Source: Nemertoderma westbladi (lineage: Eukaryota > Animalia > Xenacoelomorpha). From it: a DNA stretch of 64,000 nucleotides. The notes beneath the pieces are model-generated. The model ran no database searches. It saw only the letters and a program-made list of their open reading frames with translations, and had not been told where the DNA came from. The translations under genes and the position numbers were made by a program. Shown one piece after another: positions 28,716 through 57,214 of the stretch (position 1 is the stretch's first letter; each line of letters opens with the position of its first letter). The DNA is taken from the NCBI GenBank assembly GCA_032718475.1, contig JAUCBJ010003535.1:17126-81125 (forward strand). Reading direction: 5' to 3'.

Positions 28716-28814
28716 AGTTTTTAATCGAGTTAGTTCAATAAATCAATGCAGTGAAGCAATAAAGAAGATGCCAAGTGTATTTTGGAAACGGATGAATAAT
28801 AGAAACTCACAGTG
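28716..28814 (+). CDS. Exon of the ZMYND11-like gene, N-terminal extension (VFNRVSSINQCSEAIKKMPSVFWKRMNNRNSQ)
   Basis: ttttag acceptor, 99 nt, phase 2 to phase 2, donor TG|gtaagt. Joins 33700 in frame. Confidence 0.65.
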
Positions 28815-29098
28815 GTAAGTAATAAATAGGCATAAGTAGGGTAAGTACTGTATGTACAATAGAAACTCACAGTGGTAAGTAAGAAATAGGCATAAGTAGG
28901 GCTCAACAGAAGCTTCGGCTTCGGTTCGGTTCGGGCCGAAGTTTGGCAATTTCGGTTCGGTTCGGCTTCTGCAATTGATACTGCAGAAGCCAGGAGCAAA
29001 CTTTGCTAATTATTCCAAGTATTATATTGACTGATTGAGCTAAGACCAGAAGACAGTAAGACTAATCAATCTGTCCATCGTTGTACTAATTAATTTTG

Positions 29099-30496
29099 GG
29101 GTGCAAACGTTAAGCAGACACTGGTGCAGAGCAGACAGTAGGTACAGACAGTGGTGCAGACAGTGGTGCAGACAGTGATGCAGACAGTGGTGCAGACACC
29201 TGGTGAAACAGTGGTGCAGTCGTGCAGCCACTGGTGCAGACAGTTGTGCAGGCTTTGATACAGACAGTGGTGCAGACAGTGGTGCAGACACTGGTGCAGA
29301 CACTGGTGCAGACAGTGTTGCAGACAGTGGTGCAGACACCTGGTGCAGGCACTGGCTGACTGGTGCAGACACTGGTGCAGAGCAGACAGTGGTGTAGACA
29401 GTGGTGCAGACACTGGTGCAGACAGTGGTTCAGACACTGGTGCAGACAGTGGTGCAGACAGTGGTGCAGCCAGTGGTGCAGACAGTGGTGCAGCCAGTGG
29501 TGCAGACAGTGGTGCAGATACTGGTGCAGACACTGGCAGACTGGTGCAGACAGTGATGCAGACAGTGGTGCAGACACCTGGTGAAACAGTGGTGCAGTCG
29601 TGCAGCCACTGGTGCAGACAGTTGTGCAGGCTTTGATACAGACAGTGGTGCAGACAGTGGTGCAGACACTGGTGCAGACAGTGTTGCAGACAGTGGTGCA
29701 GACACCTGGTGCAGGCACTGGCTGACTGGTGCAGACACTGGTGCAGAGCAGACAGTGGTGTAGACAGTGGTGCAGACACTGGTGCAGACAGTGGTTCAGA
29801 CACTGGTGCAGACAGTGGTGCAGACAGTGGTGCAGCCAGTGGTGCAGACAGTGGTGCAGCCAGTGGTGCAGACAGTGGTGCAGATACTGGTGCAGACACT
29901 GGCAGACTGGTGCAGACAGTAAAGGCTGAAAGGGGCGAGCAGGTTAGTAAAGGAGCAGTTTAGTAAAGGAGCAGGTTTCAGAGGAGTATTGGGGGAACCA
30001 AAACAATAAACGTTATTGTTTTGGAGGCTAAGAATACCCAAGGGCCAAGAATACTCACAGGCTAAGAATACTCGCGGACTAACAATTCCTGAGACCTTAC
30101 TGTAGTTAGTCTGCACTGTCTGCACCACTGACTGACTGTCTGCACCAGTGTCTGCACCACTGTCTGCACCAGTGTCTGCACCACTGTCTGCACCAGTGTC
30201 TGCACCACTTTCTGCACCACTGTCTGCACCACTGTCTGCACCAGTGTCTGCACCACTGTCTGCACCAGTGTCTGCACCACTTTCTGCACCAGTCTGCACC
30301 ACTGTCTGCACCAGTGTCTGCATCACTGTCTGTACCAGTGTCTGCCGCACCACTGTCTGCACCACTGTCTGCACCAGTGTCTGTACCACTGTCTGCACGC
30401 TGCACCACTGTCTGCACCACAGTCTGCACCACTGTCCGCACCAGGTGTCTGCACCACTGTCTGCACTGCACCACTGTCTGCTTAACGTTTACACCC
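29099..30496. mobile_element. Foldback/Mutator-like element with modular 12-bp-repeat TIRs
   Basis: Termini gggtgYaaacgttaagcagac, inverted (TGCAGACAGTGG)n arms, and a 9-bp TSD ttaattttg (29090-29098 and 30497-30505). Confidence 0.9.
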
Positions 30497-30593
30497 TTAA
30501 TTTTGGACTGAACTTCCATTTAAATGGCATTATTTTTTTAATTGTTTTCAGTTTACTTGGGTAGTTTCAAAATTAGCTTATAATTATACAGTA

Positions 30594-31960
30594 CCGTAAA
30601 ACGGGGTGACTTGATACAGTTTTTGCCTTTAACTGTGAATATCTTTTGAAGTTTTTATCCAACACAGATGGAATAAAAAGACAATTTTATAGTCGGGATG
30701 AGTACTACACCACTAGACTAAAGCACTATTTCAGGTGCTTAGTCTAGTGGTGTTTTTTTTTTAAAAACCAGCTGTATCAAGTCACCCCACCTAACGGGGT
30801 GACTTGATACACGAGCAAATTTTCCGCAATAATACCACTCTGTGAATGAGTTTGGATCATGTTGTAGGCTGTGGGGGTGACTTGATACATCTTGGAAATT
30901 TTAAAAAAAGAACGAAGTCCCCACCTAATGGGGATATAAAATTATGGCTAAAATTAAAAATAACTCAATTTTTTATGAAAAAATATTAAATATTTAACAA
31001 GTTAAATTGCACTTTAAAAACGGAAAAGACCTTCATTGCATAGTGCCATCATGACACCAATAAGTAAGACAATACATTTTTAAAAAATCTGCAAACTAAA
31101 ACAATGAATATAAGCACAAATTTTGCAAATTTAAGGTTTAAGTAAAGATGAAAAAATATTTTAGAAAATCTAACTTATAACAATAGGCCTAGTTAACAAG
31201 TTAAATTGCACTTTAAAAACGAAAGAGACTTTCATTGCATTGTGAAATCCTGACTCCAGTAAGTAAGACAAGACATTTTAGAAAAAACTGAAAATTAAAT
31301 CAATGAATTTAAGCACAAATTTTGCAAAATCAAGGTTTAATTAAGTAAGATAAAATTTAAAAAAATACTGCAAACTAAATTAACAGATCAATGTAGGCCC
31401 TATTTAAGCACAAATGTTGCAAAATAAAGGTTTGCAGTTGGTATCTATCAATATACTGTACTCTATCAATAAACACTATCAATAAACAATACTGCAATAT
31501 ACCCTACACTGCCGAAGAGGATATGATTTACAGTTAACCAATATGTATCAAGTCACCCCATTTTGAGACACACTTTCAAAAAACGGGCACTCCACCCCCA
31601 ATTCATATGAAAATGTGTAAAATTTTTTTAGGATCATAATATTCAAAGACATCTATTAGCATCTGTAAAAATAATTTTTGAACAACATTAACCCAAAGTG
31701 TCAAAAATTCGACCTATATTTTGACATTGAAAAAAAGTGAATTTTTGAAAAATGCATTTTTGGCTCTAGTGATCACAAATGCGAAGCAATGACAAAATTT
31801 ATTTTAATATTTGACAGACAATTTATTCAGACATCTTCTAACTGTCTAATATTTCAATTTTTATCATAAGATCACGCAATCACCCACAATCCGTTAAAGA
31901 AAAAAAGTATAACTTGCTGTATCAAGTCACCTCAATGTATCAAGTCACCCCGTTTTACGG
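30594..31960. mobile_element. Non-autonomous Tc1/mariner (pogo-like) element
   Basis: Perfect TIR ccgtaaaacggggtgacttgataca with a TA TSD, and internal copies of ggggtgacttgataca. Confidence 0.92.
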
Positions 31961-33699
31961 TAGTTTAGGTTAGGCTAAATAGGCCTATTGCCATTTTACT
32001 TTGTAGTACCTATTTTTTAATTAATCATAACTTTGATACATAATACCAAATACAGAAATATACCTACTACCTCATACTGTCATATAAATAGTACTACCTG
32101 TACTTTTAGTGAGGTTTTCTAAATTTTATGTCACTACTGTACGGCTTACTACGGATGAAAATGTGGTGCATACAGTAGCAGTAAGTATACAGTAGTTTAG
32201 GTTAGTAATGCTGTACAGTAATGTAAATATTGTCATTTTATTTTGTAGTGCTTATTTTTTTAATTAATCATAGCTTTCTTGCTAAGTCCGCAGACCAAAT
32301 AGGTACCAGTCTGCCACTGCCAGTCAGCCAGTATAGTGACGTAAAGACGAATTTATGACCATAACTTGCTAACTTTCTGAACTTCGGTTCGGATTCGGTT
32401 CGGTTCGGCCCGAAGTTGGCCCTGCTTCGGTTCGGTTCGGTTCGGCACCATAAAGTGCCTTCTGTTGAACCCTAGGCATAAGTAGGGTAAGTACTGTATG
32501 TACAATAGAAACTCACAGTGGTAAGTAAGAAATAGGCATAAGTAGGGTAAGTACTGTATGTACAATAGAAACTAACAGTGGTAAGTAAGAAATAGGCATA
32601 AGTAGGGTAAGTACTGTATGTACAATAGAAACTCACAGTGGTAAGTAAGAAATAGGCATAAGTAGGGTAAGTACTGTATGTACAATAGAAACTCACAGTG
32701 GTAAGTAATAAATAGGCATAAGTAGGGTAAGTACTGTATGTACAATAGAAACTCACAGTGGTAAGTAAGAAATAGGCATAAGTAGGGTAAGTACTGTATG
32801 TACAATAGAAACTAACAGTGGTAAGTAAGAAATAGGCATAAGTTAGGGTAAGTACTGTATGTACAATAGAAACTCACAGTGGTAAGTAAGAAATAGGCAT
32901 AAGTAGGGTAAGTACTGTATGTACAATAGAAACTAACAGTGGTAAGTAAGAAATAGGCATAAGTTAGGGTAAGTACTGTATGTACAATAGAAACTCACAG
33001 TGGTAAGTAATAAATAGGCATAAGTAGGGTAAGTACTGTATGTACAATAGAAACTCACAGTGGTAAGTAAGAAATAGGCATAAGTAGGGTAAGTACTGTA
33101 TGTACAATAGAAACTAACAGTGGTAAGTAAGAAATAGGCATAAGTTAGGGTAAGTACTGTATGTACAAAATGAAATAGGCATAAGTAGGGTAAGTACTGT
33201 ATGTACAAAATTAAATAGACATACCTAATAGGAATTACCTATTAATTGTTAGTAAGCACAAAAAGAAATAGGCACAAACTACGGAAAAATAAGTGCATCC
33301 CGGAATTGTGTTGGTGGTTACACCAATACTGTTGCTATGCGACACGTATTAAATCCTTGGTGTTGTCTCAAATCCCACCGACATACCTTTAAATTTAATG
33401 TGTGCCCCATGATTGGTTATAGTCCATGCTCTCTAAGTTATGTGCCCCATGATTGGTTATACCCCGTAGGCCCTGCCTCTTCTCTAAGTTAAGACCAAGT
33501 GCTCTGATAAAATAAATATATTGTTGGAATATAATGCAAAGTGTTATTAATATTGTGTTATAATAATTATTCTGTATGAATTTAACAATGTTACAAAATA
33601 TAATTATTAATTACTGAAGACTTTGTATTCTACGCTTTATTATATATTTGTATGCCTATTTATCAACAAGCCCATCTTCACTTACCATTATTTTTCCAG

Positions 33700-33856
33700 C
33701 ACCTATTCATCTGGTGATGATGATGGTCTTTCGGCTGCTAACGACTCTATCGTAGGGATAGACGATTCGGCCTCCCAGATGGGAGTACCAAAAAGAAAAC
33801 AACACCAAACACAGAAGAGAACACTAGATACATCATCTAGTGATGAAGCACATTGG
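33700..33856 (+). CDS. Exon of the ZMYND11-like gene (TYSSGDDDG...DEAHW)
   Basis: tttttccag acceptor, TGG|gttagt donor, phase 2 to 0, in frame with 28814 and 45660. Confidence 0.7.
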
Positions 33857-35739
33857 GTTAGTTAATATATTTTATTATTATTTCACCGTAATCTTACAAA
33901 AGGTTTCACGACAGCGACAGGTTAAATAATTATGATTTTAAATTCATGTTTTGCAAGAAGGTATGTACTTCTCCGCAAAGATAGTGGACATTGGTTCATT
34001 ATATATAAAGGCCACACCACTTGAATGCATCGCTTGCCTGTCGCTGCCATTATAGTGCCATATAACTACATCATACACATGGTGATGAGTATTAACGAAT
34101 TATGAAGGCAGTGGCCGACAAGTCTTATCCATTCTCTCTCAGGGAGATGATGGGTTTTTGAAATCTGCGTTATGTTGAGATTGTACAATGTCTGGATTTG
34201 GTATTTTTAAACATCAAACGCCCATAAGTTTCTGCCAAATAGCAGCCCATGCTCTACTGCTACCCGAATAAATTTACCTTCAGAAAGGGTGTGATACCAG
34301 GTGATTTGTATACCTTTGATAGTTATTTAAAATGCAGACCATTCTGCAATCGGAGGTTTTCCGCAGATTTCCAAAACCAAGACTCTAAGTAGCAGAAAGT
34401 CACCTACTGTACATGACCCACAAAGCCACCCTACTTCTGAATACAAAGTGACGGTCGTTGACCTGCTGTATGAGCAGGAATCAAAGTTTACACCCACTTT
34501 TAAAAATATAGGAAACATTGGATATTGCTTGTTTTAGACTTCTAGGTAGTGACTGACAATCAATGTCCAATGTCACTGACATAAATCCCAAATCTTTAAC
34601 AAGTCAAGGTCCGTCAAGTGTATTGACAGTTGTTCTGTAATTCTACAACCTCTACAGTAGATGGTTGTATCCCACCCCATCTACACTACAATGTATATAT
34701 TTATTAGTATTATTATGTTTTCAAGAAGATCCTTCCACAGCACTCCGCCACAACGTATTACAGTTTTTGACTTTGATTGTAGTATTGTATACGATAACCA
34801 CAAACCAAAATTAATAAATCTATTATTCTAAACATTTATTTACATGTACAGTAGGTGTAGAGTACTGTAGGTGCACAATGTAGGTTTAGCCTACATGTAA
34901 GCCATTATTAGCAGAGACATGGTACAGTAGTAAGCAAGAGATGTAAGGTAGTATTGAAATTTGTCATAAAGAGGTGTTTAATTAGTGGAACCCAGAGATA
35001 AATTGAGATAAGAGAATAAAACGAAATAAAAGAAAAATAATTACAGTAATGGAGGGTGCAATTACTTGTTTAGCTACAACTTTATTTACATGTATCTTTA
35101 TCGTGAGAAGCTCCAATTCTTAGGCTAGTATGGAAATACATTTCCATGGGGGCTGTCGAAGAAAACTGTCAAATTTGTGGTGGTCTTCTTAGAATTAACA
35201 AAACGTCTAGAAGAAAAGTCTGATAGTAAAAATAGCAGATTGTAGTAAAGAACCTTTACAGAACCCATTCTGGTATCCATGAAGCCGTGAATCCGTGATG
35301 TGATTCAATATAATTATATTGTATAGTTTCGATTCGAGATTACGAGATTCCATGGAGAGATAATAATACTGTAATGTAGGTTGCCCTTCTTGGGATCTGG
35401 CACCAACATGTACGTTATCATTTCTTGTACAGAGGCAAATACTGTCTACTGTAGTAGACCGACCATCTCTATTCTGTCTACTGTAGATCTATGATGATGC
35501 ATGATGAATGAGCTCAAAAAACTCAGGAATTGTAAAGACCTCAGACACCATCTACTCCACTGAAACAATTAGTAAAGTATTAATGCTCTTGGCAAGACAT
35601 GGGCTCCATCCTCCTGCCTTTCGGATCAAGTTTTGGTTCAATAATTCTGTTCAACATTACTCTGTTGAATAGTTTATTTACAATCGAAATGAGGCTGATC
35701 CCACGATATGTGACCCATTAAGTCTTAATGGGTCACATA

Positions 35740-36000
35740 GCAACAGCTTGGTCTAGTGGTGACATTCACGGGCTTCCAATGAGGAAGGCCTAGTCGATCC
35801 CTAGATGAGGCAGCACTGTTTGGGCCCAGTGCTTTAAATTCTGCAGCCTAGCCCAACCCTGGCTTTCATCCTTTACTGGTCGATAAATGGGAACCAAGGC
35901 AACTAAGGAAACGAGTGGAAGGGTTTACTGTGGAAGATCACCCATGGTGGTAAACAGGCATTCCTTGGACAAACCAGCCTAAAATATTCTCCCATTCATT
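35740..36000 (+). mobile_element. Old tRNA-derived SINE with Nin/Deu-like central domain
   Basis: A-box-like tggtctagtgg; ctggctttcatcctttactggtcgataaatgggaacc resembles the conserved Nin/Deu SINE core. Confidence 0.55.
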
Positions 36001-36149
36001 AAGTCTAAAGTTTCCTCTAGTTTTTTTTTGGTACAGCAGCCATAACTTGTTATTATTTCTTGAGGTGAAAAATTAGCGTGGTACATGTTTTGGATATGGA
36101 ATAAAGGAGTACTTTTGTAAATCTTGAATACATCAGGAGGTATGCCACC

Positions 36150-36860
36150 AACAAGTTATTTGCCATACAGTAGAATATGCAGCAGTTTATACTTTGGAAA
36201 ACCTTATCATTTTCATCTTCATTGGAAGTAAAAGGGACTCATTGTTTTCATCACTCACAACATTAACAAACTCTTTGTACCTCTCACAGTGAGCTATTTC
36301 TTAACAGACCAGTGCGTACTGTAAGACCTGTTGATGTGTTGAAGCAGACCACACAGTAGTAGTGAATTTTTCTCCTCATTATGGTTCTTAAAGGCAGAGC
36401 TGTCATACTGAAGAGAGGACTTCTGCACAGTCATGTTCGAACGAAGACATCAGAACGCCTTTTCATCAATACTTTTTTTGAAATACAATACAGTAGGATA
36501 GATCTGTGGCTTATGTCCACTGGGTAGGTGCCCTAGATATAGAGTTTCACTGGTTTCTTCGGAATCCTGAGTGATGGCCAAAAACATATCATTGGCGAGG
36601 ATCAAATCTTCAACAACATTTCTAAACTTCGGTTGATGTGGTTGCTGTACACCAAAGCTTACTGGAGCTGAATGGCATAGAGGCATATTGAGTCCACAAG
36701 ACAAAATAGCAATAAAAGTTCATTGATCTGTACAACTGGTTCATTAGCAGGAGGGTACCGCTACGTACATGTAATTGATACCACATTGGAAAAATATGCA
36801 TTAACTTCCAAGCGAAACATGACAAATTGGCAGCGGATAATTCTACTAAACGTTTCTTCT
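36150..36860 (-). pseudogene. Highly decayed RecQ-like SF2 helicase relic, possibly from an Academ transposon
   Basis: Frameshifted motifs in the expected order: LSCFAxxxxHIFPMW (DEAH region), CTATTSTEV/RNVVEDL (TATA), PTVLYFKK, LQYDS, CVVCFNTSTGL. Confidence 0.4.
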
Positions 36861-38799
36861 AAAAAAAAATGCAGACCTTTTCTCGTAAAAACTTAGCATT
36901 TTATCTCTCAGCATGACTTCCAGTTTGCATACAGTAGGTGATAACGTAAATTGTTCGTCAGTTTCTGTTTCTAAAAGCGTACAGTATAATAAAATGGAAG
37001 GTTGGTATAAATTACAGAGATAAAACCTACATTATTCAGCATTCAATTGTGTCCCAGGGCCAGCCCCAAATTGATATATATACTAGGAGAAACTCTATAA
37101 GCTCATTAGGTCCTTTGTGGGTTCTTTAGTGCGTTAGGTCCTACAGTCCTAAAGTCTGGAAGGTACCGGCACGGTACGATACCGCAAATAACATTATAAT
37201 ATACAATACAAATAATTGCAACCTGTTGACTTTCGTTTATTGTTTTGGTTAGAATAACGTGTGTTACTGCCACCTGCTCCTTTCCATAAAAGCGTAAAAG
37301 GGAGAACCGGTAAGGCATAAAGTAACTAATGTGGCAAGCGGCAGGGACCTTACAGGTCACAATCAGGGAAACTGTGCAGAGTGTAGTGGTGTACTGTGAT
37401 TCTGGTTCTCCTACCAGCCTACTGTCGATTGGCCGATGGGTGCCAACAAGTTGATATGACTTGCAAACGTGTCAACTGTCAGACTGTATTCAGGTAGACC
37501 TATCGCTATATGTTTATGTTTAATGTTTAATAGTTTAGGGTAAGAGGAAGATAAACTTATAGATACCCATCACCGACATAATTTAAGGCAATCTTTATAT
37601 AGAACCAGAACTGAAAGTAAATTAATATGTTGTATGTAATACCGGTAATAGAATAAAATATTAATAACTACTAATACTAACTACTAATAAAATATAGTAA
37701 GAAGTTGAAGAAGAGTATAAAAAAAACCTGATACGACACCAACGAAATACATGTACTCAATCCAGCGTAGGACTGTTAAAAACCGGCGATGCACAAACAA
37801 CAAACTATAATATAGGTTAAAACAAAGTAGTGTAGAATCGGTAGAACTATTGAAATTTGAATAAGGTATGTATGAATTATTAAAAACCGACTGAATTAAA
37901 ATTTAAATAAAATATGTATGAATTATGTATGAATTACTAAAAACTGACGGGGTAGGTTAGTGTGGCGCAAACAACGTACGTACCATAATTTTAAAAAAGT
38001 ATTTAAAAATATTGACAATAAATTTGTAAATAAGTAATGTTGTACAGGCTTAAAAACATGTCAATAACAAATAGTCTACATTGATACCAAATTGAATTAA
38101 AGATTTCTTACGTGCAGATCCGAATGTGAAGCGATTATTGCCTAATGGTCAATAAAAAATTAATTAATTAATTATGTATTCCTATATTATTGATACAATT
38201 AAAAATGATTTAATTAAAATATTGTAATTAAAATGTAGTATTCCTACTGTACCATAGGTTTTCATGCGTATATTTGGGCATGAAAGGGTTAAATAAATAA
38301 ATAAATTTATAGACTAGAAATTAAATATAAACCAATCAATTAAGTTATTTAATTCATTAAATTTAGAGTTACAATTATCACGCATTGAAAAATGTTTCTA
38401 GGTCCACCACGACGGATCGGTCTGTCGGTAGCTGTAGGTATTGCAGTAGTGTACAGTTAGGTACGGTATGTAGGTTAGGCCTACAGCAGTACAGCCTACA
38501 CCCGACACCTACACCAGTACTGCAGTACACTGCTACTACATACCTGTCAGCCTGTAGGCCTACCCACCTATCCCATACCCCATGTCTTGTCAGCATGTAC
38601 CGGCAACCGGTATCAGGGTATTCAATACTGCAGTACAGCAGTACCGGTACTGTAGATGTTGGATGTAGTCTCAGAAGACCACAGACTGACAGACTCATGT
38701 CAGTATGTTGGCAGCATTTTTAAAATTTTTTTCCTTTAACATTTCTCTACCAGTGTACTGAATGTCTGACCACATGGCTGTATGGTTTCCCTCAATTGG

Positions 38800-39429
38800 C
38801 AGTCGGCCCAGTCGGGAAGAAGTAGTCCCCACTATTTTCAACTGAGTTGAAATTTCAACTTTATTTTTTAAATTCAACTTTTTATTACGGTAAAATTCAA
38901 CTTTTGGCTGTTTGGAGTAGCGGTACGGACTTGTACGGTCAGACTGTCAGACGGTATAGTTTAAAATTCAATTTTTTTTTTAAAATTCAACTTTTGGTGT
39001 AGCTTTGGAAATACTGAAATATGGAATTGGAATCCATTACTGGCTGACTGGTATTCCATTGTATAATAATTATGGCATACCGGTACAGCGGTAATTTCAT
39101 AGGGCCTACATCTAATAAATTCCCGTACAGCCGTAGTATTTCAGCTAATTTGCAAATGTAATCACTTAAAATGTTTTAAAAAAGTATTCCCGACGGTGAA
39201 AGTTTTTATTCCATCCACCATCGGTAATGAGGGTTAATTTTTCGAATTACATCCATAAAAACACCCCTTCTGTGACGTCTTGCTGTCTTGGCAGCTTGGG
39301 GCCTTGCCTTTCTGCGCCACCTGCCATTTTAGAGTTGAATTTACAACTTAAAAGTTGAATTACCGGTACATTTTAAGTTTTAAATTTCAACTCAGTCTGT
39401 CAGTTGAAATTTGAACTTCTCCCCGACTG
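38800..39429. mobile_element. MITE with CAGT termini and 5-bp TSD
   Basis: cagtcgg(cc)cagtcgggaagaagt and acttctccccgactg, TSD attgg, internal aattcaact/agttgaatt repeats. Confidence 0.8.
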
Positions 39430-40076
39430 ATTGGTATAAAGTGATCGTTTAGGCCTAGGCCTATTGTTTTATTAGAAAAGCCCGTCTTTTTCTGTCTGTA
39501 ACCTGCTCCTTTCCCTCAATTTGTAAAGTGGCCATTTATTGTTTTGGTTATTGGTAATGTGATCGTGTATTGTTTTGGTTAGAAAAGCCCGCCTCTGTCA
39601 GTCAGGGAGATCATCAATTTTGGGGTTACCCCAAATTTCGAATTCTGGTAATACTGTAATAGACTGTCGAAAATTGGGGTTTTTTGTTCAAATTTGAGGT
39701 ATTTTTAGGCTCATAATATCGAGTGTTGCTGCGACTTAGGGAAACTGTTGGAGCAACTTCTACTTTTAATATGTTAAAATATAATGTAAAATAAGAACTT
39801 TTATCGATGCAATAAAATATTTCACCGATGCAAACATGCTTTAATTGGGGGCGAAAATTGAAATTTGAGGTTAAACCTCAAATTTGAGACAAAACCTCAA
39901 ATTTCGCCAGCCTTTACAACATCACCAGCCTGTCAGCAGTAGGGTGTAGCAGTAGGCTTTGCTGCTTAGTGCTTAAATAGAGCTTGGTGAGAATGGGTGA
40001 CCAGTGTAACCTGTGACCTGACATGTATGCAGGGCAGGCTTAACCTTACAGACAGCACAGTAACTTACAGTCAATA

Positions 40077-43897: not shown

Positions 43898-44020
43898 GCA
43901 GGCACTAAAGTTGCATTGCAATAATCGATAGTGTGTAGGGATGGATTTCGCTCAAATTTCGATCAAAAATTTTGATCAACACTTTCAATGAAATTTTAGA
44001 AATTCCACCCAAAATATTTT

Positions 44021-45346: not shown

Positions 45347-45450
45347 CAGTCGGTGAGAAGTCAAAAATTGGACTTTAGTCCAAAATTGGACTTCGACTCC
45401 AGTTCAAGTCCAAAATTGGACTTCTGTGAGTCCAATATTGGACTTCAAAT
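45347..45450. mobile_element. Solo terminus of another CAGT-type element
   Basis: cagtcggtgagaagt followed by palindromic agtccaaaattggact repeats; no partner end found. Confidence 0.55.
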
Positions 45451-45659
45451 CAGCTAATTGTTCCAGGGCCTTGGCCTTAGGTACGTGATAGGCTGATAGG
45501 GTAGACCTACGGTAGAGCATATCAGATGTATTTCATTAGGCTAGCGCTAGACTGCTAGGCGTATTTTCTGTTGCAGTGTAGTTGGGATCATTCCAATATT
45601 TATGAAGATATTTACTGGTACTTTATACTGTTAGGCTATAATAATTTATTTCACCATAG

Positions 45660-46131
45660 GACGAACGGACTTTCATAAAACCGCCACCCATCGCCCCTCT
45701 CCGACGTAAAATACCTGCGTTTGTGGCGACGCGTCGCCCGCATGGGTTTCCCGGAGATACGCGCCGTAATATTATGGATTCAGCGGAGGAGGCGATAGAT
45801 GAACAAACCGGGACGACCGCAGCGAGGCAACGAGGTGCGAAACGGTTGCGGTACATAGTAGAGTCGGATAGCGAAGAGGGGGTGGTGAGCGATGTGGAGG
45901 GAGATTGGACTGAAGGAGAGGAGGAGATATCGGTATCGAGCAATGACGACTCTAATAGCGAGATGGATCAAATAAGACTTCCTCGGAGGGATGTGAGTAG
46001 ATTCGATCAGCCCCTTAGTGTGGACGTGGACCAATGTACCGTTGTTCTAGAACGGATAAACACACCGGAGACAGTGAAGAGGGGTGCTACCTCACACCAA
46101 TCCTCTTTGAAAGGGAGCAATAGGAATTTCG
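45660..46131 (+). CDS. ZMYND11-like gene exon (acidic, disordered)
   Basis: catag acceptor, open frame, G|gttagt donor, phase 0 to 1. Confidence 0.8.
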
Positions 46132-46245
46132 GTTAGTTGTTGTTTTATATTTAGGCCTAATATTAAAGTGTTACCTATTAGTTTAGTTGCCATTTGATTG
46201 GGTACCAAAATTTAATTACCGGTACTTTATTTAATATTTTCTTAG

Positions 46246-47288
46246 GTAAATCTCGAAGCGATCTGAGATGGAAGAAACTTCGACGAACTCCGGAATCCGA
46301 CGATTATACGGAGGAGAGCGGGAGTGGTTACTACGGGTCGCCCAGTGACAGTTCTGGTCGCGATAGTAACACCGACTCTACCGAAATCGGGATCGCTATA
46401 GGGCCAAACATCGCGATAAAACGACCACCGACGGCCTGGCTGGAAGCCAACCAGTCGTCCATAGCAACGGTCGGTCAAGTCACAGAAACTCGGAGTACCA
46501 ACTCCGGAGTCGCTCGCATTAAAACTGTTACTCATACCGGAAGTAATGTTACTCATACCGGAAGTAATGTTACTCATACCGGAAGTAATGTTACTCATAC
46601 GGGAAGTAATGTTACTCCTACCGGAAGTAATGTTACTCATACCGGAAGTAATGTTACTCATACTGGAAGTAAGGTTACTCATAACAGAAGTAATGTTACT
46701 CATACCGGAAGTAATGTTACTCATACCGGAAGTAATGTTACTCATACCGGAAGTAAGGTTACTCATAACGGAAGTAATGTTTCTCATACCGGAAGTAATG
46801 TTACTCATGCCGGAAGTAAGGTCACTCATACCGGAATTAATGTTCCGCGTACCGGAAGTCGTGAGTCCCTGCTCGTCAGTCGGTCGCCGTACCCGGATAG
46901 GACTGGTAGCGACTGCTCAGTGGCTCAACTGGGACTCCCGTTGGTTCACCTACAGTGCTGCGTCAGTGAGCCGAGCGGCTCGGGCCACCAATCGAGGGCG
47001 ACGCCCAGTAGATACAACAACTACTCGTCCGATAATGCGAGTGCGATTAGTGGATCGCCCCAAGCGGTACCCGTAAATAATAAACGCGTTAACCCGTCCC
47101 ACACTAAACGTGTGAGCTCGACTCACACTAAACGTGCGAACTCGAGTTCTTCCCACACTAACCGAGGTCTTCCATCGCACAATCGAAACACTTCGCCTGT
47201 AGGAAGTGCGCTAACCACCGCTCCCAACTCAGAAACAATCCGTAATGGCCTCCTCACTCCCCCAATAACCCCCGACACACAATTCGAG
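46246..47288 (+). CDS. ZMYND11-like gene exon, Ser/Thr-rich, with (VTHTGSN)n
   Basis: ttcttag acceptor, GAG|gtaatt donor, phase 1 to 0, uninterrupted frame. Confidence 0.8.
46527..46860 (+). repeat. Coding 21-bp minisatellite, about 16 units
   Basis: Unit gttactcataccggaagtaat, in frame. Confidence 0.95.
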
Positions 47289-47719
47289 GTAATTATAATC
47301 GAAATACTATGAATCTGTTGATTTTCTCTAATCTTTCTTTACTCCTGGCCACTGTACTATTCCGTGGTGTTCTACCCTTTAATTATCAGCTCGAAACATT
47401 GAAGTCTGTTAGTGTTTTAGCTAATTGTCGGGGTTAAATAACACAAATTTACCTTATCACATCTAATACCTTTTGCAGTATATATAAGGCGTCGTTGACA
47501 AAGAAACACGTTTTGCTAATTTTTCTTGAGAATCGGCCATCGTGTTCTCAATAAATCCAATCAGACTAACAGTAAATTTAAAACTGAAAGTAAACATAGA
47601 CTCGCAGTTCCCCTTATACTAAACAGTTTCGAACTATAGTTCTAGTTATTGTTATATATTATTTTACTTGTTCAGTAAAGTTGTCCTCTAGTCTCTAATT
47701 ATTTATTTTTTATTTGTAG

Positions 47720-47761
47720 ACTGGCACGGGGAACTTTGAGACTAAAGGACATTCGCTCCAG
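47720..47761 (+). CDS. ZMYND11-like gene 42-nt exon (TGTGNFETKGHSLQ)
   Basis: tttgtag acceptor, CAG|gtaaac donor, phase 0 to 0. Confidence 0.75.
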
Positions 47762-47923
47762 GTAAACTAATAACTATATCCAATAAAGTATTTTATATCA
47801 CTGTAACTTAGTTTCATTGTTGTACTGTAACGTACTATAATAATATATTTATTTAACAAGATTGAAACTAATAAATTATATTGAGTAGAATAATTAATTC
47901 CAAACAAACATTTTATCTCACAG

Positions 47924-48074
47924 CGCCGTTCAACAAACACAATCGTAGTTTGGTACCTTTGGGCCGGAGTCCGTGAGATTCGAAAGGGAAAGAAATGCGC
48001 AACGTTGTCGCGATTAGTCGGCTACATGTTGAAGAATGTTGAGTCAACAAAACGTGAAGTTATTGCCAATATCA
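47924..48074 (+). CDS. ZMYND11: ZMYND11-like exon, N-terminal winged-helix domain
   Basis: RRSTNTIVVWYLWAGVREIRKGKKCATLSRLVGYMLKN resembles the ZMYND11 N-terminus ([35 protein letters not shown]). Phase-1 donor A|gtaagt. Confidence 0.88.
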
Positions 48075-51000
48075 GTAAGTTATTGCCAATATCAGTAAGT
48101 TATTGCCAATATCAGTAAGTTATTGCCAATATCAGTAAGTTATTGCCAATATCAGTAAGTTATTGCCAATATCAGTAAGTTATTGCCAATATCAGTAAGT
48201 TATTGCCAATATCAGTAAGTTATTGCCAATATCAGTAAGTTATTGCCAATATCAGTAAGTTATTGCCAATATCAGTAAGTTATTGCCAATATCAGTAAGT
48301 TATTGCCAATATCAGTAAGTTATTGCCAATATCAGTAAGTTATTGCCAATATCAGTAAGTTATTGCCAATATCAATGAGTTATTGCCAATATCAGTAAGT
48401 TATTGCCAATATAAGTAAGTTATTGCCAATATCAGTAGTTATTGCCAATATCAGTAAGTTATTGCCAATATCAGTAAGTTATAGCCAATATCAGTAAGTT
48501 ATTGCCAATATCAGTAAGTTATTGCCAATATCAGTAAGTTATTGCCAATATCAGTAAGTTATTGCCAATATCAGTAAGTTATTGCCAATATCAGTAAGTT
48601 ATTGCCAATATCAGTAGTTATTGCCAATATCAGTGAGTTATTGCCAATATCAGTAAGTTATTGCCAATATCAGTAAGTTATTGCCAATATCAGTAGTTAT
48701 TGCCAATATCAGTAAGTTATTGCCAATATCAGTAAGTTATAGCCAATATCAGTAAGTTATAGCCAATATCAGTAAGTTATTGCCAATATCAGTAAGTTAT
48801 TGCCAATATCAGTAAGTTATTGCCAATATCAGTAAGTTATTGCCAATATCAGTAAGTTATTGCCAATATCAATAAGTTATTGCCAATATCAGTAAGTTAT
48901 TGCCAATATCAGTAAGTTATTGCCAATATCAGTAAGTTATAGCCAATATCAGTAAGTTATTGCCAATATCAGTAAGTTATTGCCAATATCAGTAAGTTAT
49001 TGCCAATATCAGTAAGTTATAGCCAATATCAGTAAGTTATAGCCAATATCAGTAAGTTATTGCCAATATCAGTAAGTTATTGCCAATATCAGTAAGTTAT
49101 TGCCAATATCAGTAAGTTATTGCCAATATCAGTAAGTTATTGCCAATATCAATAAGTTATTGCCAATATCAGTAAGTTATTGCCAATATCAGTAAGTTAT
49201 TGCCAATATCAGTAAGTTATTGCCAATATCAGTAAGTTATTGCCAATATCAATAAGTTATTGCCAATATCAGTAAGTTATTGCCAATATCAGTAAGTTAT
49301 TGCCAATATCAGTAAGTTATTGCCAATATTAGTAAGTTATTGCCAATATCAATGAGTTATTGCCAATATCAGTAAGTTATTGCCAATATCAGTAAGTTAT
49401 TGCCAATATCAGTAGTTATTGCCAATATCAGTAAGTTATTGCCAATATCAGTAAGTTATAGCCAATATCAGTAAGTTATTGCCAATATCAGTAAGTTATT
49501 GCCAATATCAGTAAGTTATTGCCAATATCAGTAAGTTATTGCCAATATCAGTAAGTTATTGCCAATATCAGTAAGTTATTGCCAATATCAGTAAGTTATT
49601 GCCAATATCAGTAAGTTATTGCCAATATCAGTAAGTTATAGCCAATATCAGTAAGTTATTGCCAATATCAGTAAGTTATTGCCAATATCAGTAAGTTATT
49701 GCCAATATCAGTAAGTTATAGCCAATATCAGTAAGTTATTGCCAATATCAGTAAGTTATTGCCAATATCAGTAAGTTATTGCCAATATCAGTAAGTTATT
49801 GCCAATATCAGTAAGTTATTGCCAATATCAGTAAGTTATTGCCAATATCAGTAAGTTATTGCCAATATCAGTAAGTTATTGCCAATATCAGTAAGTTATT
49901 GCCAATATCAGTAAGTTATTGCCAATATCAATGAGTTATTGCCAATATCAGTAAGTTATTGCCAATATCAGTAAGTTATTGCCAATATCAGTAGTTATTG
50001 CCAATATCAGTAAGTTATTGCCAATATCAGTAAGTTATAGCCAATATCAGTAAGTTATTGCCAATATCAGTAAGTTATTGCCAATATCAGTAAGTTATTG
50101 CCAATATCAGTAAGTTATTGCCAATATCAGTAAGTTATTGCCAATATCAGTAAGTTATTGCCAATATCAGTAGTTATTGCCAATATCAGTGAGTTATTGC
50201 CAATATCAGTAAGTTATTGCCAATATCAGTAAGTTATTGCCAATATCAGTAGTTATTGCCAATATCAGTAAGTTATTGCCAATATCAGTAAGTTATAGCC
50301 AATATCAGTAAGTTATAGCCAATATCAGTAAGTTATTGCCAATATCAGTAAGTTATTGCCAATATCAGTAAGTTATTGCCAATATCAGTAAGTTATTGCC
50401 AATATCAGTAAGTTATTGCCAATATCAATAAGTTATTGCCAATATCAGTAAGTTATTGCCAATATCAGTAAGTTATTGCCAATATCAGTAAGTTATAGCC
50501 AATATCAGTAAGTTATTGCCAATATCAGTAAGTTATTGCCAATATCAGTAAGTTATTGCCAATATCAGTAAGTTATAGCCAATATCAGTAAGTTATAGCC
50601 AATATCAGTAAGTTATTGCCAATATCAGTAAGTTATTGCCAATATCAGTAAGTTATTGCCAATATCAGTAAGTTATTGCCAATATCAGTAAGTTATTGCC
50701 AATATCAATAAGTTATTGCCAATATCAGTAAGTTATTGCCAATATCAGTAAGTTATTGCCAATATCAGTAAGTTATTGCCAATATCAGTAAGTTATTGCC
50801 AATATCAATAAGTTATTGCCAATATCAGTAAGTTATTGCCAATATCAGTAAGTTATTGCCAATATCAGTAAGTTATTGCCAATATCAATGAGTTATTGCC
50901 AATATCAGTAAGTTATTGCCAATATCAGTAAGTTATTGCCAATATCAGTAGTTATTGCCAATATCAGTAAGTTATTGCCAATATCAATAAGTTATTGCCA

Positions 51001-53031
51001 ATATCAGTAAGTTATTGCCAATATCAGTAAGTTATTGCCAATATCAGTAAGTTATTGCCAATATCAATGAGTTATTGCCAATATCAGTAAGTTATTGCCA
51101 ATATCAGTAAGTTATTGCCAATATCAGTAGTTATTGCCAATATCAGTAAGTTATTGCCAATATCAGTAAGTTATTGCCAATATCAGTAAGTTATAGCCAA
51201 TATCAGTAAGTTATTGCCAATATCAGTAAGTTATTGCCAATATCAGTAAGTTATTGCCAATATCAGTAAGTTATAGCCAATATCAGTCAATAAGTTATTG
51301 CCAATATCAGTAAGTTATTGCCAATATCAGTAAGTTATTGCCAATATTAGTAAGTTATTGCCAATATCAATGAGTTATTGCCAATATCAGTAAGTTATTG
51401 CCAATATCAGTAAGTTATTGCCAATATCAGTAGTTATTGCCAATATCAGTAAGTTATTGCCAATATCAGTAAGTTATAGCCAATATCAGTAAGTTATTGC
51501 AAATATCAGTAAGTTATTGTCAATATCAGTAAGTTATTGCCAATATCAGTAAGTTATTGCCAATATCAATAAGTTATTGCCAATATCAGTAAGTTATTGC
51601 CAATATCAGTAAGTTATTGCCAATATCAGTAAGTTATTGCCAATATTAGTAAGTTATTGCCAATATCAATGAGTTATTGCCAATATCAGTAAGTTATTGC
51701 CAATATCAGTAAGTTATTGCCAATATCAGTAGTTATTGCCAATATCAGTAAGTTATTGCCAATATCAGTAAGTTATTGCCAATATCAGTAAGTTATTGCC
51801 AATATCAGTAAGTTATTGCCAATATCAATAAGTTATTGCCAATATCAGTAAGTTATTGCCAATATCAGTAAGTTATTGCCAATATCAGTAAGTTATTGCC
51901 AATATCAGTAAGTTATTGCCAATATTAGTAAGTTATTGCCAATATCAATGAGTTATTGCCAATATCAGTAAGTTATTGCCAATATCAGTAAGTTATTGCC
52001 AATATCAGTAGTTATTGCCAATATCAGTAAGTTATTGCCAATATCAGTAAGTTATAGCCAATATCAGTATCAGTAAGTTATTGCCAATATCAGTAAGTTA
52101 TTGCCAATATCAGTAAGTTATTGCCAATATCAGTAAGTTATTGCCAATATCAGTAAGTTATTGCCAATATCAGTAAGTTATTGCCAATATCAGTAAGTTA
52201 TTGCCAATATCAGTAAGTTATAGCCAATATCAGTAAGTTATTGCCAATATCAGTAAGTTATTGCCAATATCAGTAAGTTATTGCCAATATCAGTAAGTTA
52301 TAGCCAATATCAGTAAGTTATTGCCAATATCAGTAAGTTATTGCCAATATCAGTAAGTTATTGCCAATATCAGTAAGTTATTGCCAATATCAGTAAGTTA
52401 TTGCCAATATCAGTAAGTTATTGCCAATATCAGTAAGTTATTGCCAATATCAGTAAGTTATTGCCAATATCAGTAAGTTATTGCCAATATCAATGAGTTA
52501 TTGCCAATATCAGTAAGTTATTGCCAATATCAGTAAGTTATTGCCAATATCAGTAGTTATTGCCAATATCAGTAAGTTATTGCCAATATCAGTAAGTTAT
52601 TGCCAATATCAGTAAGTTATTGCCAATATCAGTAAGTTATTGCCAATATCAGTAAGTTATTGCCAATATCAGTAAGTTATTGCCAATATCAGTAAGTTAT
52701 TGCCAATATCAGTAAGTTATTGCCAATATCAATAAGTTATTGCCAATATCAGTAAGTTATTGCCAATATCAGTAAGTTATTGCCAATATCAGTAAGTTAT
52801 TGCCAATATCAATGAGTTATTGCCAATATCAGTAAGTTATTGCCAATATCAGTAAGTTATTGCCAATATCAGTAGTTATTGCCAATATCAGTAAGTTATT
52901 GCCAATATCAGTAAGTTATAGCCAATATCAGTAAGTTATTGCCAATATCAGTAAGTTATTGCCAATATCAGTAAGTTATTGCCAATATCAGTAAGTTATT
53001 GCCAATATCAGTAAGTTATTGCCAATATCAG
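48059..53031 (+). repeat. 20-bp satellite, about 250 units, made of the exon end plus splice donor
   Basis: Unit gttattgccaatatca|gtaa; the first copy overlaps the last 16 nt of the exon. Confidence 0.98.
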
Positions 53032-53126: not shown

Positions 53127-53524
53127 ACTGCGCTGTTAAAGAAGGTCTGCTCTACCGGATGGTCGTCCAGGGTTCATACACTCAGGATACTGACGTCACT
53201 GATAACTCAATCCCAGAATTAATCTCATCCAACGGGACTGTAGAACAATACTTCATACCTAAAGACATCCCCACCCGTTACAAACACGACTGGTATTGTT
53301 TCCAGTGCCACGCAGGTAACGAAGGCGATGTATACGAATGCGCCGTCTGCGATCGCGTCTACCATACCCGCTGCCTGTCGGACAAGGTGGTTAACAGCGC
53401 CCCCTGGCGGTGTCGGTTTTGTTTGGCTGCGTCCGACGCTACTTCTGTTAACGCCAATATCGGACTCAGCCACTCGGTGCTCAATAAAACTCTCGCGTTC
53501 GTCCTGAACAGGATGAAGGAAAAG
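53127..53524 (+). CDS. ZMYND11: ZMYND11-like exon: end of winged helix, PHD finger, start of bromodomain
   Basis: CAVKEGLL...HDWYCFQCH..VYECAVCDRVYHTRCL..PWRCRFC..LAFVLNRMKEK; phase 1 to 0. Confidence 0.93.
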
Positions 53525-54971
53525 GTTAGCGCCGTAGTTAGCCGAGCTGTGCCATATAGTTAGTCGAGCTGTGCCATAGTTAGCCGAGCTGTGCCATAGT
53601 TAGTTGAGCTGTGCCATAGTTAGCCGAGCTGTGCCATAATTAGCCGAGCTGAACCATAGTTAGCCGAGCTATGCTATAGTTAGCCGAGATGTCCTATAGT
53701 TAGCCGAGCTGTGCCATAGTTCGCTGAGCTGTGCCATAGTTCGCCGAGCTGAGCCATAGTTAGCCGACCTGCGCCATAGTTAGGGGAGCTGTGCCATAGT
53801 TAGTGCCATAATTATCCGAGCTGAACCATAGTTAGCCGACCTGCGCCATATTCTTAGTCGAGCTGTGCCATAGTTAGCCGAGCTGTACCATAGTTAGTCG
53901 AGCTGTGCCATAGTTAAACGAGCTGCGCCATAGTTAGGCGAGCTGTGCCATAGTTAGCGTAGCTGTGCCATAGTTAGTGCCATAATTATCCGAGCTGAAC
54001 CATAGTTAGCCGAGCTGTGCTATATTTTATTTAGCCGAGCTGTGCTGTGCCATAGTTAGTCGAGCTGTGACATAATAGTTAGCCTAGCTGTGCCATAATT
54101 AGCCAAGCTGACGCATAGTTAGCCGAGCTATGCTATAGTTAGCAGAGCTGTGCCATAATTAGCCGCGTTGTACCTTAGTTAGTCGAGCTGGGCCATAATT
54201 AACCGAGCTGTGCCATAATTAGCTGAGCTGTGACATAGTTAGCCGAGCTGCGCCATATAGATAGCGGAGCTGTGCCATTGTTAGTCGAGCTGGGCCATAA
54301 TTAACCGGGCTGTGCCATAATTAGCCGAGTTGTGACATAGTTAGCCGAGCAGCGACATAGTTAGCCGAGCTGTACCATAGTTAGCCGAGCTGTAACATTG
54401 TTAGTCGAGCTGCGCCATAGTAGTCGAGCTGTGACATAATAGTTAGCCTAGCTGCGCCATAATTAGCCAAGCTGACGCATAGTTAGCCGAGCTATGCTAT
54501 AGTTAGCAGAGCTGTGCCTTAGTTAGCCGAGCTGGGCCATAATTAACCGAGCTGTGCCATAATTAGCTGAGCTGTGACATAGTTAGCCGAGCTGGGCCAT
54601 AATTAACCGAGCTGTGCCATAATTCGCCGAGCTGTGACATGCTTAGTCGAGCTGTGCCATAGTTAGTCTGTGACATAATGGTTAGCCTAGCTGTGCCATA
54701 ATTAGCCAAGCTGAAGCATAGTTAGCCGAGCTATGCTATAGTTAGCAGAGCTGAGCCATAATTAACCGCGCTGTGCCTTAGTTAGTCGAGCTGGGCCATA
54801 ATTAACCGAGCTGTGCCATAATTAGCTGAGCTGTGACATAGTTAGTCGAGCTGCGCCATATAGTTAGCGGAGCTGTGCCATAGTTAGTCGAGCTGCGCCA
54901 TATAGTTAGCGGAGCTGTGCCATAGTTAGTCGAGCTGGGCCATAATTAGCCGCGCTGTACCATAGTTAGCC
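53525..54971 (+). repeat. Diverged 20-bp satellite starting at the splice donor, about 70 units
   Basis: Unit gttagccgagctgtgccata; the donor is AAG|gttagc. Confidence 0.95.
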
Positions 54972-55020
54972 TACTAATAATAACTAATAATTAATAATCG
55001 ACTCGATTCTTTTTTATTAG

Positions 55021-55204
55021 AGTCAGAAAATTCATCTGATCGCTCCCCTCGATGAGGACCAGAAGTTTTACGACTCGATCATTTACAAACACATGGACAT
55101 GAAAGTGATGGGAAACAAAATCCACAAGGAGTTGTACACCTGTCTGGAGGAGTTCGAGGGAGACGCCTTGAGGATGCAGCATAACTGCGTCTTATATTAC
55201 GGAT
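55021..55204 (+). CDS. ZMYND11: ZMYND11-like exon, bromodomain
   Basis: FYDSIIYKHMDMKVMGNKIHKELYTCLEEFEGDALRMQHNCVLYYG; tttattag acceptor and T|gtaagt donor. Confidence 0.92.
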
Positions 55205-56011
55205 GTAAGTTATTGTATTACGGATGTAAGTTATTGTATTACGGGTGTAAGTTATTGTATTACGGATGTAAGTTATTGTATTACGGATGTAAGTTATTGT
55301 ATTACGGGTGTAAGTTATTGTATTACGGATGTAAGTTATTGTATTACGGATGTAAGTTATTGTATTACGGGTGTAATTTATTGTATTACGGGTGTAAGTT
55401 ATTGTATTACGGGTGTAAGTTATTGTATTACAGGTGTAAGTTATTGTATTACGGATGTAAGTTATTGTATTACGGATGTAAGTTATTGTATTACGGGTGT
55501 AAGTTATTGTATTACGGGTGTAAGTTATTGTATTACGGATGTAAGTTATTGTATTACGGGTATTGTATTACGGATGTAAGTTATTGTATTACGGGTGTAA
55601 GTTATTGTATTACGGATGTAAGTTATTGTATTACAGGTGTAAGTTATTGTATTACAGGTGTAAGTTATTGTATTACGGGTGTAAGTTATTGTATTACAGG
55701 TGTAAGTTATTGTATTACGGGTGTAAGTTATTGTATTACGGGTGTAAGTTATTGTATTACGGGTTTAAGTTATTGTATTACGGGTGTAAGTTATTGTATT
55801 ACAGTGGTGTAAGTTATTGTATTACGGATGTAAGTTATTGTATTACGGGTGTAAGTTATTGTATTACGGGTTTAAGTTATTGTATTACGGGTGTAAGTTA
55901 TTGTATTACAGGTGTAAGTTATTGTATTACGGATGTAAGTTATTGTATTACGGGTGTAAGTTATTGTATTACGGATGTAAGTTGTTGTATTACGGATGTA
56001 AGTTATTGTAT
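55195..56011 (+). repeat. 21-bp satellite spanning the splice donor, about 38 units; resumes at about 57075-57100
   Basis: Unit tattacggRt|gtaagttattg. Confidence 0.97.
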
Positions 56012-56014
56012 TCT

Positions 56015-57078
56015 GTATGTTATTGTCTACTGTCTGCCCATTGCTACAGCATGCGATCATCTTGAAGTCGGCTACCACATCTACGCTGACGACAACCAGA
56101 TCTTCATAATTTTCGACTGCCTTGACTCATTGGCACTAAAAGCTTCGATAGCAAATTGCATCCAAGCCATCAAAGTGCAACTCGATGAACTTCACCTGTT
56201 CTTGAATGATGACATGACAGACATCCTACTACTTGGACGCGGCAACGATTTCTTGAGCTTTGCATCAGAATTCTCAGTCTCTCTAGGCGGCAAGATAATT
56301 CAATCCCTATCCACCGTAACAACCCTTGGAGTTCGCTTCGATAGTCAGCTAAATATGCATGATCACATTAAAACTCTCAAATCTATTCTATAATAATTCT
56401 ATATTCTAATTCTAATATTCTAATAATTCTAATCTATATCAGCATCTATTAACTTTCACCTCAGGAACATACGTCGAATAAAAGAACACTTGTCTTCTGA
56501 TAATCTGAAGAAGCTTGTCAATGCTCTAATAATATCACGTATCGATCAAAACAACAGTCTTCTGTATAATCTACCAACTGTGTCCCTCAACAGACTACAA
56601 CTTGCACTTAATAGCTGCGCCCGCCTTATTTCAGGTCAACCGGTTCGGTCTCACATCACCCCTACTTTACGAACTCTTCACTGGTTGCCGGTCACCTTCC
56701 GTATCGAGTACAAGATTGCACTCATGACGTGGAAGGCGCTTAATGGTCTCGCCCCGTCTTACATTTTAGAACTGTTGACTCCAAACTACAACCCAACTAG
56801 AACCCAACAACTGTGGACTTTATCGGTCCCAAGATACAACTTAAAGACGGTCGGTTCCCGTGCATTTAAACATGCTGCCCCAGTTATTTTCAACAGTATC
56901 CCCCTTAGCTTAAGAACTTGCACAAATTTAGAATCATTCAAATCTCAACTCAAAACATGTTTATATAATAGGGCCTTCAACTGACTTTCTAACTGTTTTT
57001 ACTACTGCGCCTTTGAACCTTGCGAAAAAGGCGCATAACAAGAAATTGTGTATTATTATTATTATTATTATTATTATT
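56015..57078 (+). mobile_element. 5'-truncated L2/CR1-group LINE inserted in the 21-bp array
   Basis: YADD RT motif, SHITPTLRTLHWLPV C-terminus, 3' stem-loop gcgccttt..aaaggcgc, (ATT)n tail. The frame is broken by an (attcta)n expansion at about 56385-56435. Confidence 0.9.
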
Positions 57079-57214
57079 ACAGGTGTAAGTTATTGTATTT
57101 TTTTTAATATTAATTAAAACTAATATAATTTGTGTTATAAATCTAAAAATATTTAGCAAGTTGTTAGACTTAATTACTGTAAGAAAAAAAGCTACGGACT
57201 ACTGGCTACTGACC

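What the first reader, a model, noticed from the sequence alone, without database searches (positions are those of the whole stretch)
28798..57100. Splice-donor satellites: four 5' splice sites of one gene are each amplified into their own tandem array
Seen: arrays with distinct units begin exactly at donors 28814 (60 bp), 48074 (20 bp), 53524 (20 bp) and 55204 (21 bp); the last three introns are consecutive. In three arrays the unit is the last 10-17 exon bases plus GTAAGT. In the fourth, the unit starts with the donor's own GTTAGC. No array spans an acceptor. Because each unit derives from local sequence, these arose independently in place. Inference: a recurrent donor-anchored amplification process (slippage or repair linked to U1 binding, Pol II pausing or R-loops) inflates introns here, and the organism must have a rule for choosing among tens to hundreds of near-identical donors.
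Basis: partly seen in the sequence, partly recalled or inferred. Interest (0 to 1): 0.92.

Follow-up and report, generated by a model that had tools for sequence, protein, structure and literature searches.

The report
Four splice-donor minisatellites in ZMYND11
In an unidentified animal's ZMYND11 gene, four exon ends have each been copied head-to-tail 13 to about 250 times into the next intron; the spliced sequence found uses only the first splice signal at the three sites that could be checked, so this is likely a dense but harmless example of a repeat type already known from lancelet and human genes.

Summary
An 8-exon model (831 codons, no stop) is a ZMYND11 orthologue. Arrays sit at donors 28814, 48074, 53524 and 55204: 4 of 8 donors, 0 of 8 acceptors. 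Three span the donor (17, 18, 10 exon bases); the fourth starts at the GT and carries no exon bases. Arrays F, G and H are present in DNA contigs of two individuals. A spliced contig from one run uses the first donor at those three, even where downstream copies are in frame and stop-free. Donor 28814 was not tested on RNA. This fits the known 'mirage'/F7-type junction minisatellite with first-donor choice (PMC3087553, PMC1557585), and the scan has noted such arrays in many other animal genomes, including several per gene. What stays open is the density: under a conservative in-gene null it has p about 1e-4 (post hoc), and all 3 donors reading GTAAGT carry arrays against 1 of 5 others (p=0.07). 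No genome was available for the decisive genome-wide test. New member of a known kind; interest 0.32.

The parts
28768..28814 (+). Exon A coding part (ATG to donor 28814); acceptor near 28716; belongs to the gene by frame only
   Evidence: no RNA test
28798..33223 (+). Array A: 60-bp unit (17 exon + 43 intron bases), about 13 copies, interrupted by a transposon
28897..32474 (.). hAT-like non-autonomous insertion in array A (16-bp terminal inverted repeats with 1 mismatch, 8-bp target duplication), holding nested repeats; family label inferred from these ends
33700..33856 (+). Exon B; no array at its donor
45660..46131 (+). Exon C; no array at its donor
46246..47288 (+). Exon D; holds an in-frame 21-bp coding repeat (46526-46859); no array at its donor
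47720..47761 (+). Exon E; no array at its donor
47924..48074 (+). Exon F (first part of the winged-helix domain); first donor 48074 is used
48057..53031 (+). Array F: 20-bp unit (18 exon bases + GT), about 249 copies as assembled, 205 downstream donor 11-mers identical to the real one; a 78-unit block is repeated inside it
53127..53524 (+). Exon G (end of winged helix, PHD finger); donor 53524 is used
53525..54971 (+). Array G: 20-bp unit starting at the donor GT, about 72 diverged copies, no exon bases
55021..55204 (+). Exon H (bromodomain); first donor 55204 is used
55195..57100 (+). Array H: 21-bp unit (10 exon + 11 intron bases), about 39 copies to 56012 plus a last part-copy behind a LINE-like fragment; unit in frame and stop-free
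56012..57079 (+). LINE-like 3' fragment with a TAT tail inserted near the end of array H; label from recalled resemblance, no Pfam hit

Best explanation
These are four locally derived junction minisatellites ('mirage'/F7 type) in a ZMYND11 gene, each likely seeded by a small microhomology-guided duplication across or at the donor, likely expanded by slippage and unequal exchange, and likely tolerated as neutral because the first donor stays in use, which a spliced contig shows at three of the four. Shown: anatomy, local origin, presence of F, G, H in two individuals, first-donor use at F, G, H. Inferred: the seeding step, the expansion route, neutrality, and the selection rule (5'-to-3' choice of the most upstream site, carried over from human F7). 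The clustering at donors likely reflects a general tendency of exon borders to seed repeats in animals, plus a filter: two host introns were only about 70-100 bases long and their 3' part cannot be lengthened freely.
For: Spliced contig in run X4 (1326 nt, depth 398) carries only 18 unit letters between exon F and 53127, and joins 53524 straight to exon H. From 55204 it goes into two next exons whose depths (251 + 157) add up to the exon's, with no array-H units in any of the 3 X4 records, although the H unit is in frame and stop-free to 55810, so decay cannot hide downstream use there. The spliced protein aligns to ZMYND11 homologues without insertions at the junctions. Border microhomology: TATT for H, GTTAGC for G, about 2 bases for A and F (read by eye). 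Repeated variant blocks in F (45-unit exact run at 78-unit distance). Arrays of different divergence (75-97%) and transposons inside A and H point to drift. Same layout and first-site use in F7, LMNB2, PDGF (PMC1557585) and lancelet genes (PMC3087553, PMC3902484).
Against: 4 of 4 long host-derived intronic arrays touch donors; under a neutral-placement null that already spares acceptors, the chance is 1e-4 (introns capped at 500 bases) to 1e-8, so filtering alone is a poor fit, though the window was picked post hoc. All 3 GTAAGT donors have arrays against 1 of 5 others (p=0.07), and F and H share 11 bases (about 0.004 by chance). RNA evidence is one run, contigs only (rare isoforms are dropped), labelled 'DNA?' and read as RNA from its splicing; it comes from another haplotype than the window. 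Exon A is untested. Neutrality is untested.
Confidence: 0.62

Rival explanations
1. A donor-targeted mutational process in this lineage (U1 snRNP binding, paused polymerase or R-loops at strong 5' splice sites) preferentially seeds or expands repeats at donors.
For: 4 of 8 donors against 0 of 8 acceptors and no long host-derived array elsewhere in the introns seen; null 1e-4 to 1e-8; 3 of 3 GTAAGT donors affected; F and H share GTAAGTTATTG.
Against: One gene picked after the fact; n=8. Array G has a GTTAGC donor and exon D holds an array far from any donor. Acceptor-side mirages exist in lancelets (PMC3087553) and in unchecked scan notes. No direct evidence for U1, pausing or R-loops. The shared 11-mer could be conversion from the large neighbouring array F.
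Confidence: 0.22
2. The arrays are kept by selection as U1 landing pads that strengthen weak donors or protect transposon-filled introns from premature cleavage.
For: Donors F and H match U1 poorly on the exon side (6 and 7 of 11). In F the last copy is followed by GCAATA, so the GTAAGT of the used donor may have been created by the duplication (inferred). F and G arrays are shared by haplotypes about 2% apart.
Against: Introns 6 and 7 were short and hold no AATAAA to suppress, while the 11.8-kb intron 2 holds 21 and has no array. Array G copies are poor U1 matches. Transposons have landed in the arrays.
Confidence: 0.08
3. The arrays are an alternative-donor device that yields isoforms or tunes expression through decay.
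For: Unit H would add seven in-frame residues per copy; human 6-16 and CBS use the next two copies (PMC1557585, Introduction). Use of later copies at A, F or G would hit a stop or shift the frame, so those products could be lost to decay.
Against: No X4 contig carries extra units at F, G or H (2 and 3 records laid); depth past exon H is fully accounted for by first-donor joins.
Confidence: 0.05
4. The arrays are assembly artefacts.
For: Array F is very homogeneous, has an internal 78-unit repeat, and its depth is only 0.11-0.57 of expectation, so its length may be overstated.
Against: Junction contigs and depth far above single-copy level for F, G and H in two samples from two studies; diverged units and nested insertions with target duplications.
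Confidence: 0.03

Closest known systems
Amphioxus 'mirage' minisatellites (Adh3, globins BflGb6/BflGb9, troponin C, PGBD5); PMC3087553 (abstract part, passages, reference list) and PMC3902484 (passages). The original Adh3 paper (PMC117041) was not held: title only.
   Same: Tandem copies of an exon-intron boundary, units of 10-160 bp, splice signals repeated, normal splicing kept; more than one array in a gene (PGBD5 has two).
   Different: Here four arrays in one gene, all donor-side, up to about 250 copies (2-7 in the globin and PGBD5 cases read), in a long-branched animal that is not a lancelet; array G abuts rather than spans the border.
Human F7 intron 7 37-bp VNTR, with 6-16, CBS, LMNB2, PDGF; PMC1557585 (abstract, Introduction, Discussion read)
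   Same: First unit spans the donor, identical pseudo-donors follow, the most upstream one is used.
   Different: One array per gene and 5-25 copies there; here up to 205 identical decoys, and three consecutive introns. The scanning mechanism was shown in mammalian cells, not in this organism.
Internal tandem repeats at exon-intron boundaries of duplicated human genes; PMC2812944 (passages)
   Same: Repeats at exon-intron boundaries alter intron structure.
   Different: Those often create introns or stay in alternative transcripts; here the acceptors lie outside the arrays and no alternative transcript was seen.

Membership tests
Mirage / donor-spanning minisatellite | First unit spans an exon-intron boundary (arrays A, F, H) | tested here: met
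   17, 18 and 10 exon bases in the unit
Mirage / donor-spanning minisatellite | First unit spans an exon-intron boundary (array G) | tested here: not met
   Starts at the GT, no exon bases; it is donor-abutting, so filed as working alike, not as a strict member
Mirage / donor-spanning minisatellite | Minisatellite-size unit in head-to-tail copies | tested here: met
   20, 20, 21, 60 bp
Mirage / donor-spanning minisatellite | Splice signal repeated in the intron | tested here: met
   Identical donor 11-mers: A 12, F 205, H 13; G 0
Mirage / donor-spanning minisatellite | Authentic (most upstream) site used, mRNA normal (F, G, H) | tested here: met
   Spliced contigs of one run; rare isoforms would not show
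Mirage / donor-spanning minisatellite | Authentic site used (array A) | not tested
   Frame continuity only; both read-laying runs went to F/G and G/H
Mirage / donor-spanning minisatellite | Length instability between alleles or cells | tested here: inconclusive
   Depth ratios differ between runs, also within one sample; contig depth is no copy number
Transposon-borne or dispersed satellite | Unit found at other loci, independent of exon sequence | tested here: not met
   Within the 64-kb window only; units contain protein-coding exon ends; genome not available
Intron gain by tandem duplication of an AG|GT site | Duplicated segment supplies both donor and acceptor | tested here: not met
   Acceptors lie 49-476 bases beyond the arrays
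ZMYND11 (host gene) | Winged helix, PHD, bromodomain in order, then PWWP and MYND | tested here: inconclusive
   First three present and best named hits are ZMYND11; PWWP and MYND would lie beyond the window

The most novel reading that the evidence does not exclude
In this lineage, 5' splice sites with a perfect U1-pairing GTAAGT are mutational hot spots for repeat birth and expansion, so that splicing itself drives intron growth genome-wide; half of this gene's donors have been hit, and in one case the duplication built the donor that is now used.
Probability: 0.2. Interest if true: 0.72.

Novelty: new member of a known kind. Interest (0 to 1): 0.32.

Why it matters
As it stands it is an extreme natural test of 5' splice-site choice: one donor picked from about 200 identical copies in a non-vertebrate, and an in-frame array that still shows no downstream use in contigs. 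It also shows two introns growing 20- to 50-fold from their own donor region. If the enrichment held genome-wide and tracked donor strength, it would tie splicing to local mutation and explain why junction minisatellites keep turning up across animals; my searches found no genome-wide donor-versus-acceptor count.

Tried and rejected
No whole genome is held, so no genome-wide test. No RNA holder was listed for 44000-48100; X4 is read as RNA only from its splicing. Run X6 laid nothing. A word-based protein search with exon G found nothing; the HMMER search did. The flotillin tree left the organism unplaced on a long branch (quick tree, 54 rows picked from 120 listed hits). Two metagenome scans gave no locus of this organism or a close relative (0 hits; 51 loci, full-length matches at 65% or less). 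The two next exons and an X3 flank are not in the window. A 42-nt X4 contig at depth 1100 that resembles unit F (2 mismatches, 2 gaps) was set aside as probably another repeat; unexplained. The depth simulation could not confirm the 5-kb length of F. The 12-bp arrays at 2699-4620 and 29131-30466 were left out of the count as transposon parts (same unit at two loci in inverted pairs); the 4-, 10- and 3-bp rows and the coding repeat in exon D were also not counted as long intronic arrays. PMC10078293, PMC2206037 and PMC2632668 (passages) had nothing on this point. No supplements were read; the Adh3 paper could not be read and may describe several arrays in one gene.
Full report
The gene. Eight + strand exons (A 28768-28814, B 33700-33856, C 45660-46131, D 46246-47288, E 47720-47761, F 47924-48074, G 53127-53524, H 55021-55204) join into 831 codons without a stop, and all seven introns are GT-AG. 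Exon G has a PHD finger (below Pfam's cut-off) and exon H a bromodomain. A HMMER search with exon G returned 151 proteins; of 10 looked up, 6 clusters hold a member named ZMYND11, 2 have only uninformative names and 2 have representatives without a name. Residues 585-831 align with these across winged helix, PHD and bromodomain with no insertion at the junctions. The first 575 or so residues have no counterpart in these homologues, so exons A-C belong to the gene by frame continuity alone. The organism is an animal that I could not place.

The arrays. TRF lists 60 rows. Four long host-derived intronic arrays exist, all at donors; donors B-E have none and no array reaches an acceptor. Array A has a 60-bp unit of 17 exon and 43 intron bases, about 13 copies, split by a 3578-bp element with hAT-like ends and an 8-bp target duplication. 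Array F has 18 exon bases plus GT, about 249 copies, and fills all but 95 bases of intron 6. Array G starts at the GT, has about 72 diverged copies, and leaves 49 bases. Array H has 10 exon and 11 intron bases, about 39 copies, with a LINE-like fragment near its end. Downstream 11-mers identical to the real donor number 12, 205, 0 and 13. No 12-mer of F or G occurs outside its array in the window; A and H have 5 scattered hits each; F and H share their first 11 bases.

Are they real? In contigs of three genomic runs from two samples, single contigs run from the tail of array F through exon G into array G. Summed depth over F reaches 2000-5200 against 16-25 for single-copy sequence. Array H shows the same in 2 of 2 genomic runs laid. 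The second sample differs from the window at 11-12 letters in 556, so the arrays are shared by diverged haplotypes. A simulation from the assembled arrays gives observed/expected depth of 0.32, 0.11 and 0.57 for F and 0.60 and 0.97 for H; contigs are simplified and filtered, and the tool warns that depth is no copy number, so F is long but 5 kb is not confirmed. Array A was not checked.

Which donor is used? Run X4 is labelled 'DNA?', but it covers exons only and is spliced, so I read it as RNA (inference). Its 1326-nt contig has exon F, exactly 18 unit letters, then 53127-53524, then the 184 bases of exon H. At 55204 it forks into two 110-nt contigs (depth 251 and 157; exon depth 398), each leaving from the first donor into a different next exon, neither of which is in the window. 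No X4 record carries additional units, apart from one poorly matching 42-nt piece that I set aside. This matters most at H, where the unit is in frame and stop-free up to 55810, so decay would not remove such products. Limits: one run, contigs only, and a haplotype that matches sample S2 (all 10 exon differences of X2), not the window.

More than chance? I placed arrays at random among tolerated positions (over a donor, or inside an intron but 35 bases clear of the acceptor). Four of four at donors has probability 1e-4 with introns capped at 500 bases, 3e-6 at 2000 and 1e-8 uncapped. The window was picked after the fact from some 250,000, so 1e-4 is suggestive only. Introns 6 and 7 collapse to about 100 and 70 bases, where any array must begin near the donor. 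All three donors reading GTAAGT carry arrays, against one of five others (Fisher p=0.07), and the 11 bases shared by F and H have a chance of about 0.004.

Mechanism. Shown: local origin, first-donor use at three sites, later insertions. Inferred: seeding by short duplications at microhomologies (4 bases for H, 6 for G, about 2 for A and F), growth by slippage and unequal exchange (a 78-unit block is repeated in F), and tolerance because the most upstream donor wins. In F the last copy is followed by GCAATA and the exon itself reads GTGAAGTT one unit upstream, so the GTAAGT now used may be a product of the duplication (inference). A donor-targeted process stays possible at about 0.2; nothing here tests U1, pausing or R-loops. 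A protective role against premature cleavage fits badly: introns 6 and 7 hold no AATAAA and intron 2, with 21, has no array.

Known kinds. Tandem repeats over exon-intron borders are named 'mirages' in lancelets, occur at either border and do not disturb splicing (PMC3087553, passages); lancelet PGBD5 has two (PMC3902484, passages). Human F7, LMNB2 and PDGF use only the first donor, while 6-16 and CBS also use the next two; mutational work on F7 supports 5'-to-3' choice (PMC1557585; abstract, Introduction, Discussion). I reached these papers through earlier scan notes. Those notes, unchecked, list similar arrays in sharks, rays, urchin, abalone, clam and annelids, on both donor and acceptor sides, including seven borders in one Ret gene and one case using the last donor. 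Arrays A, F and H meet the tested defining features (A lacks the RNA test); G only works alike.

Verdict. A real and unusually dense example of a known repeat kind, with the known first-donor rule holding against up to 205 identical decoys. The one open point of value is whether donors, and GTAAGT donors in particular, are mutational hot spots in this genome; that needs the assembly. New member of a known kind, interest 0.32.

Noticed in passing
window 55204 (run X4): Exon H is spliced to two different next exons of equal contig length (depth 251 and 157), with similar peptide starts: probably duplicated, mutually exclusive exons inside the ZMYND11 bromodomain. Both lie beyond the window. A search listing showed no paper on this by title or abstract start.
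   Followed up: partly
window 58604-59899 (-): Intronless flotillin-2-like gene nested antisense in intron 8 of ZMYND11; 65% at best to other animals and on a long branch.
   Followed up: partly
window 28768-47288 (+): About 575 residues of low-complexity N-terminal extension, absent from the ZMYND11 homologues aligned, including a 7-residue coding repeat of 16 copies (46526-46859).
   Followed up: partly
window about 8214-19919: Apparently complete LTR retrotransposon: near-identical 1.28-kb terminal repeats and a 5-bp target duplication read by eye, and a 1350-codon ORF with DUF1759 and weak protease hits; BEL/Pao-like by recall.
   Followed up: no
window 2699-4620 and 29131-30466: Two elements whose arms are inverted arrays of the same 12-bp unit; the second lies inside the hAT-like insertion in array A.
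   Followed up: partly
window 54962 and array H (run X3): In sample S2, 26 foreign letters ending like a hAT terminus precede the last unit of array G, and a contig of 255 or more foreign letters joins array-H units: possible polymorphic insertions in the arrays; the latter flank is not in the window.
   Followed up: partly
window 53524/55021: The intron 7 position coincides with the point where a frog isoform and several arthropod homologues have insertions, which suggests an old intron rather than one made by array G.
   Followed up: no
window 53195-53509: Ten exon G differences between the window and runs X2/X4: 6 silent, 4 amino-acid changing; about 2% divergence between haplotypes.
   Followed up: partly
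window 28081-28169: Short 10/20-bp array about 50 bases upstream of a possible 5' UTR donor near 28220; not at a border and not counted.
   Followed up: no
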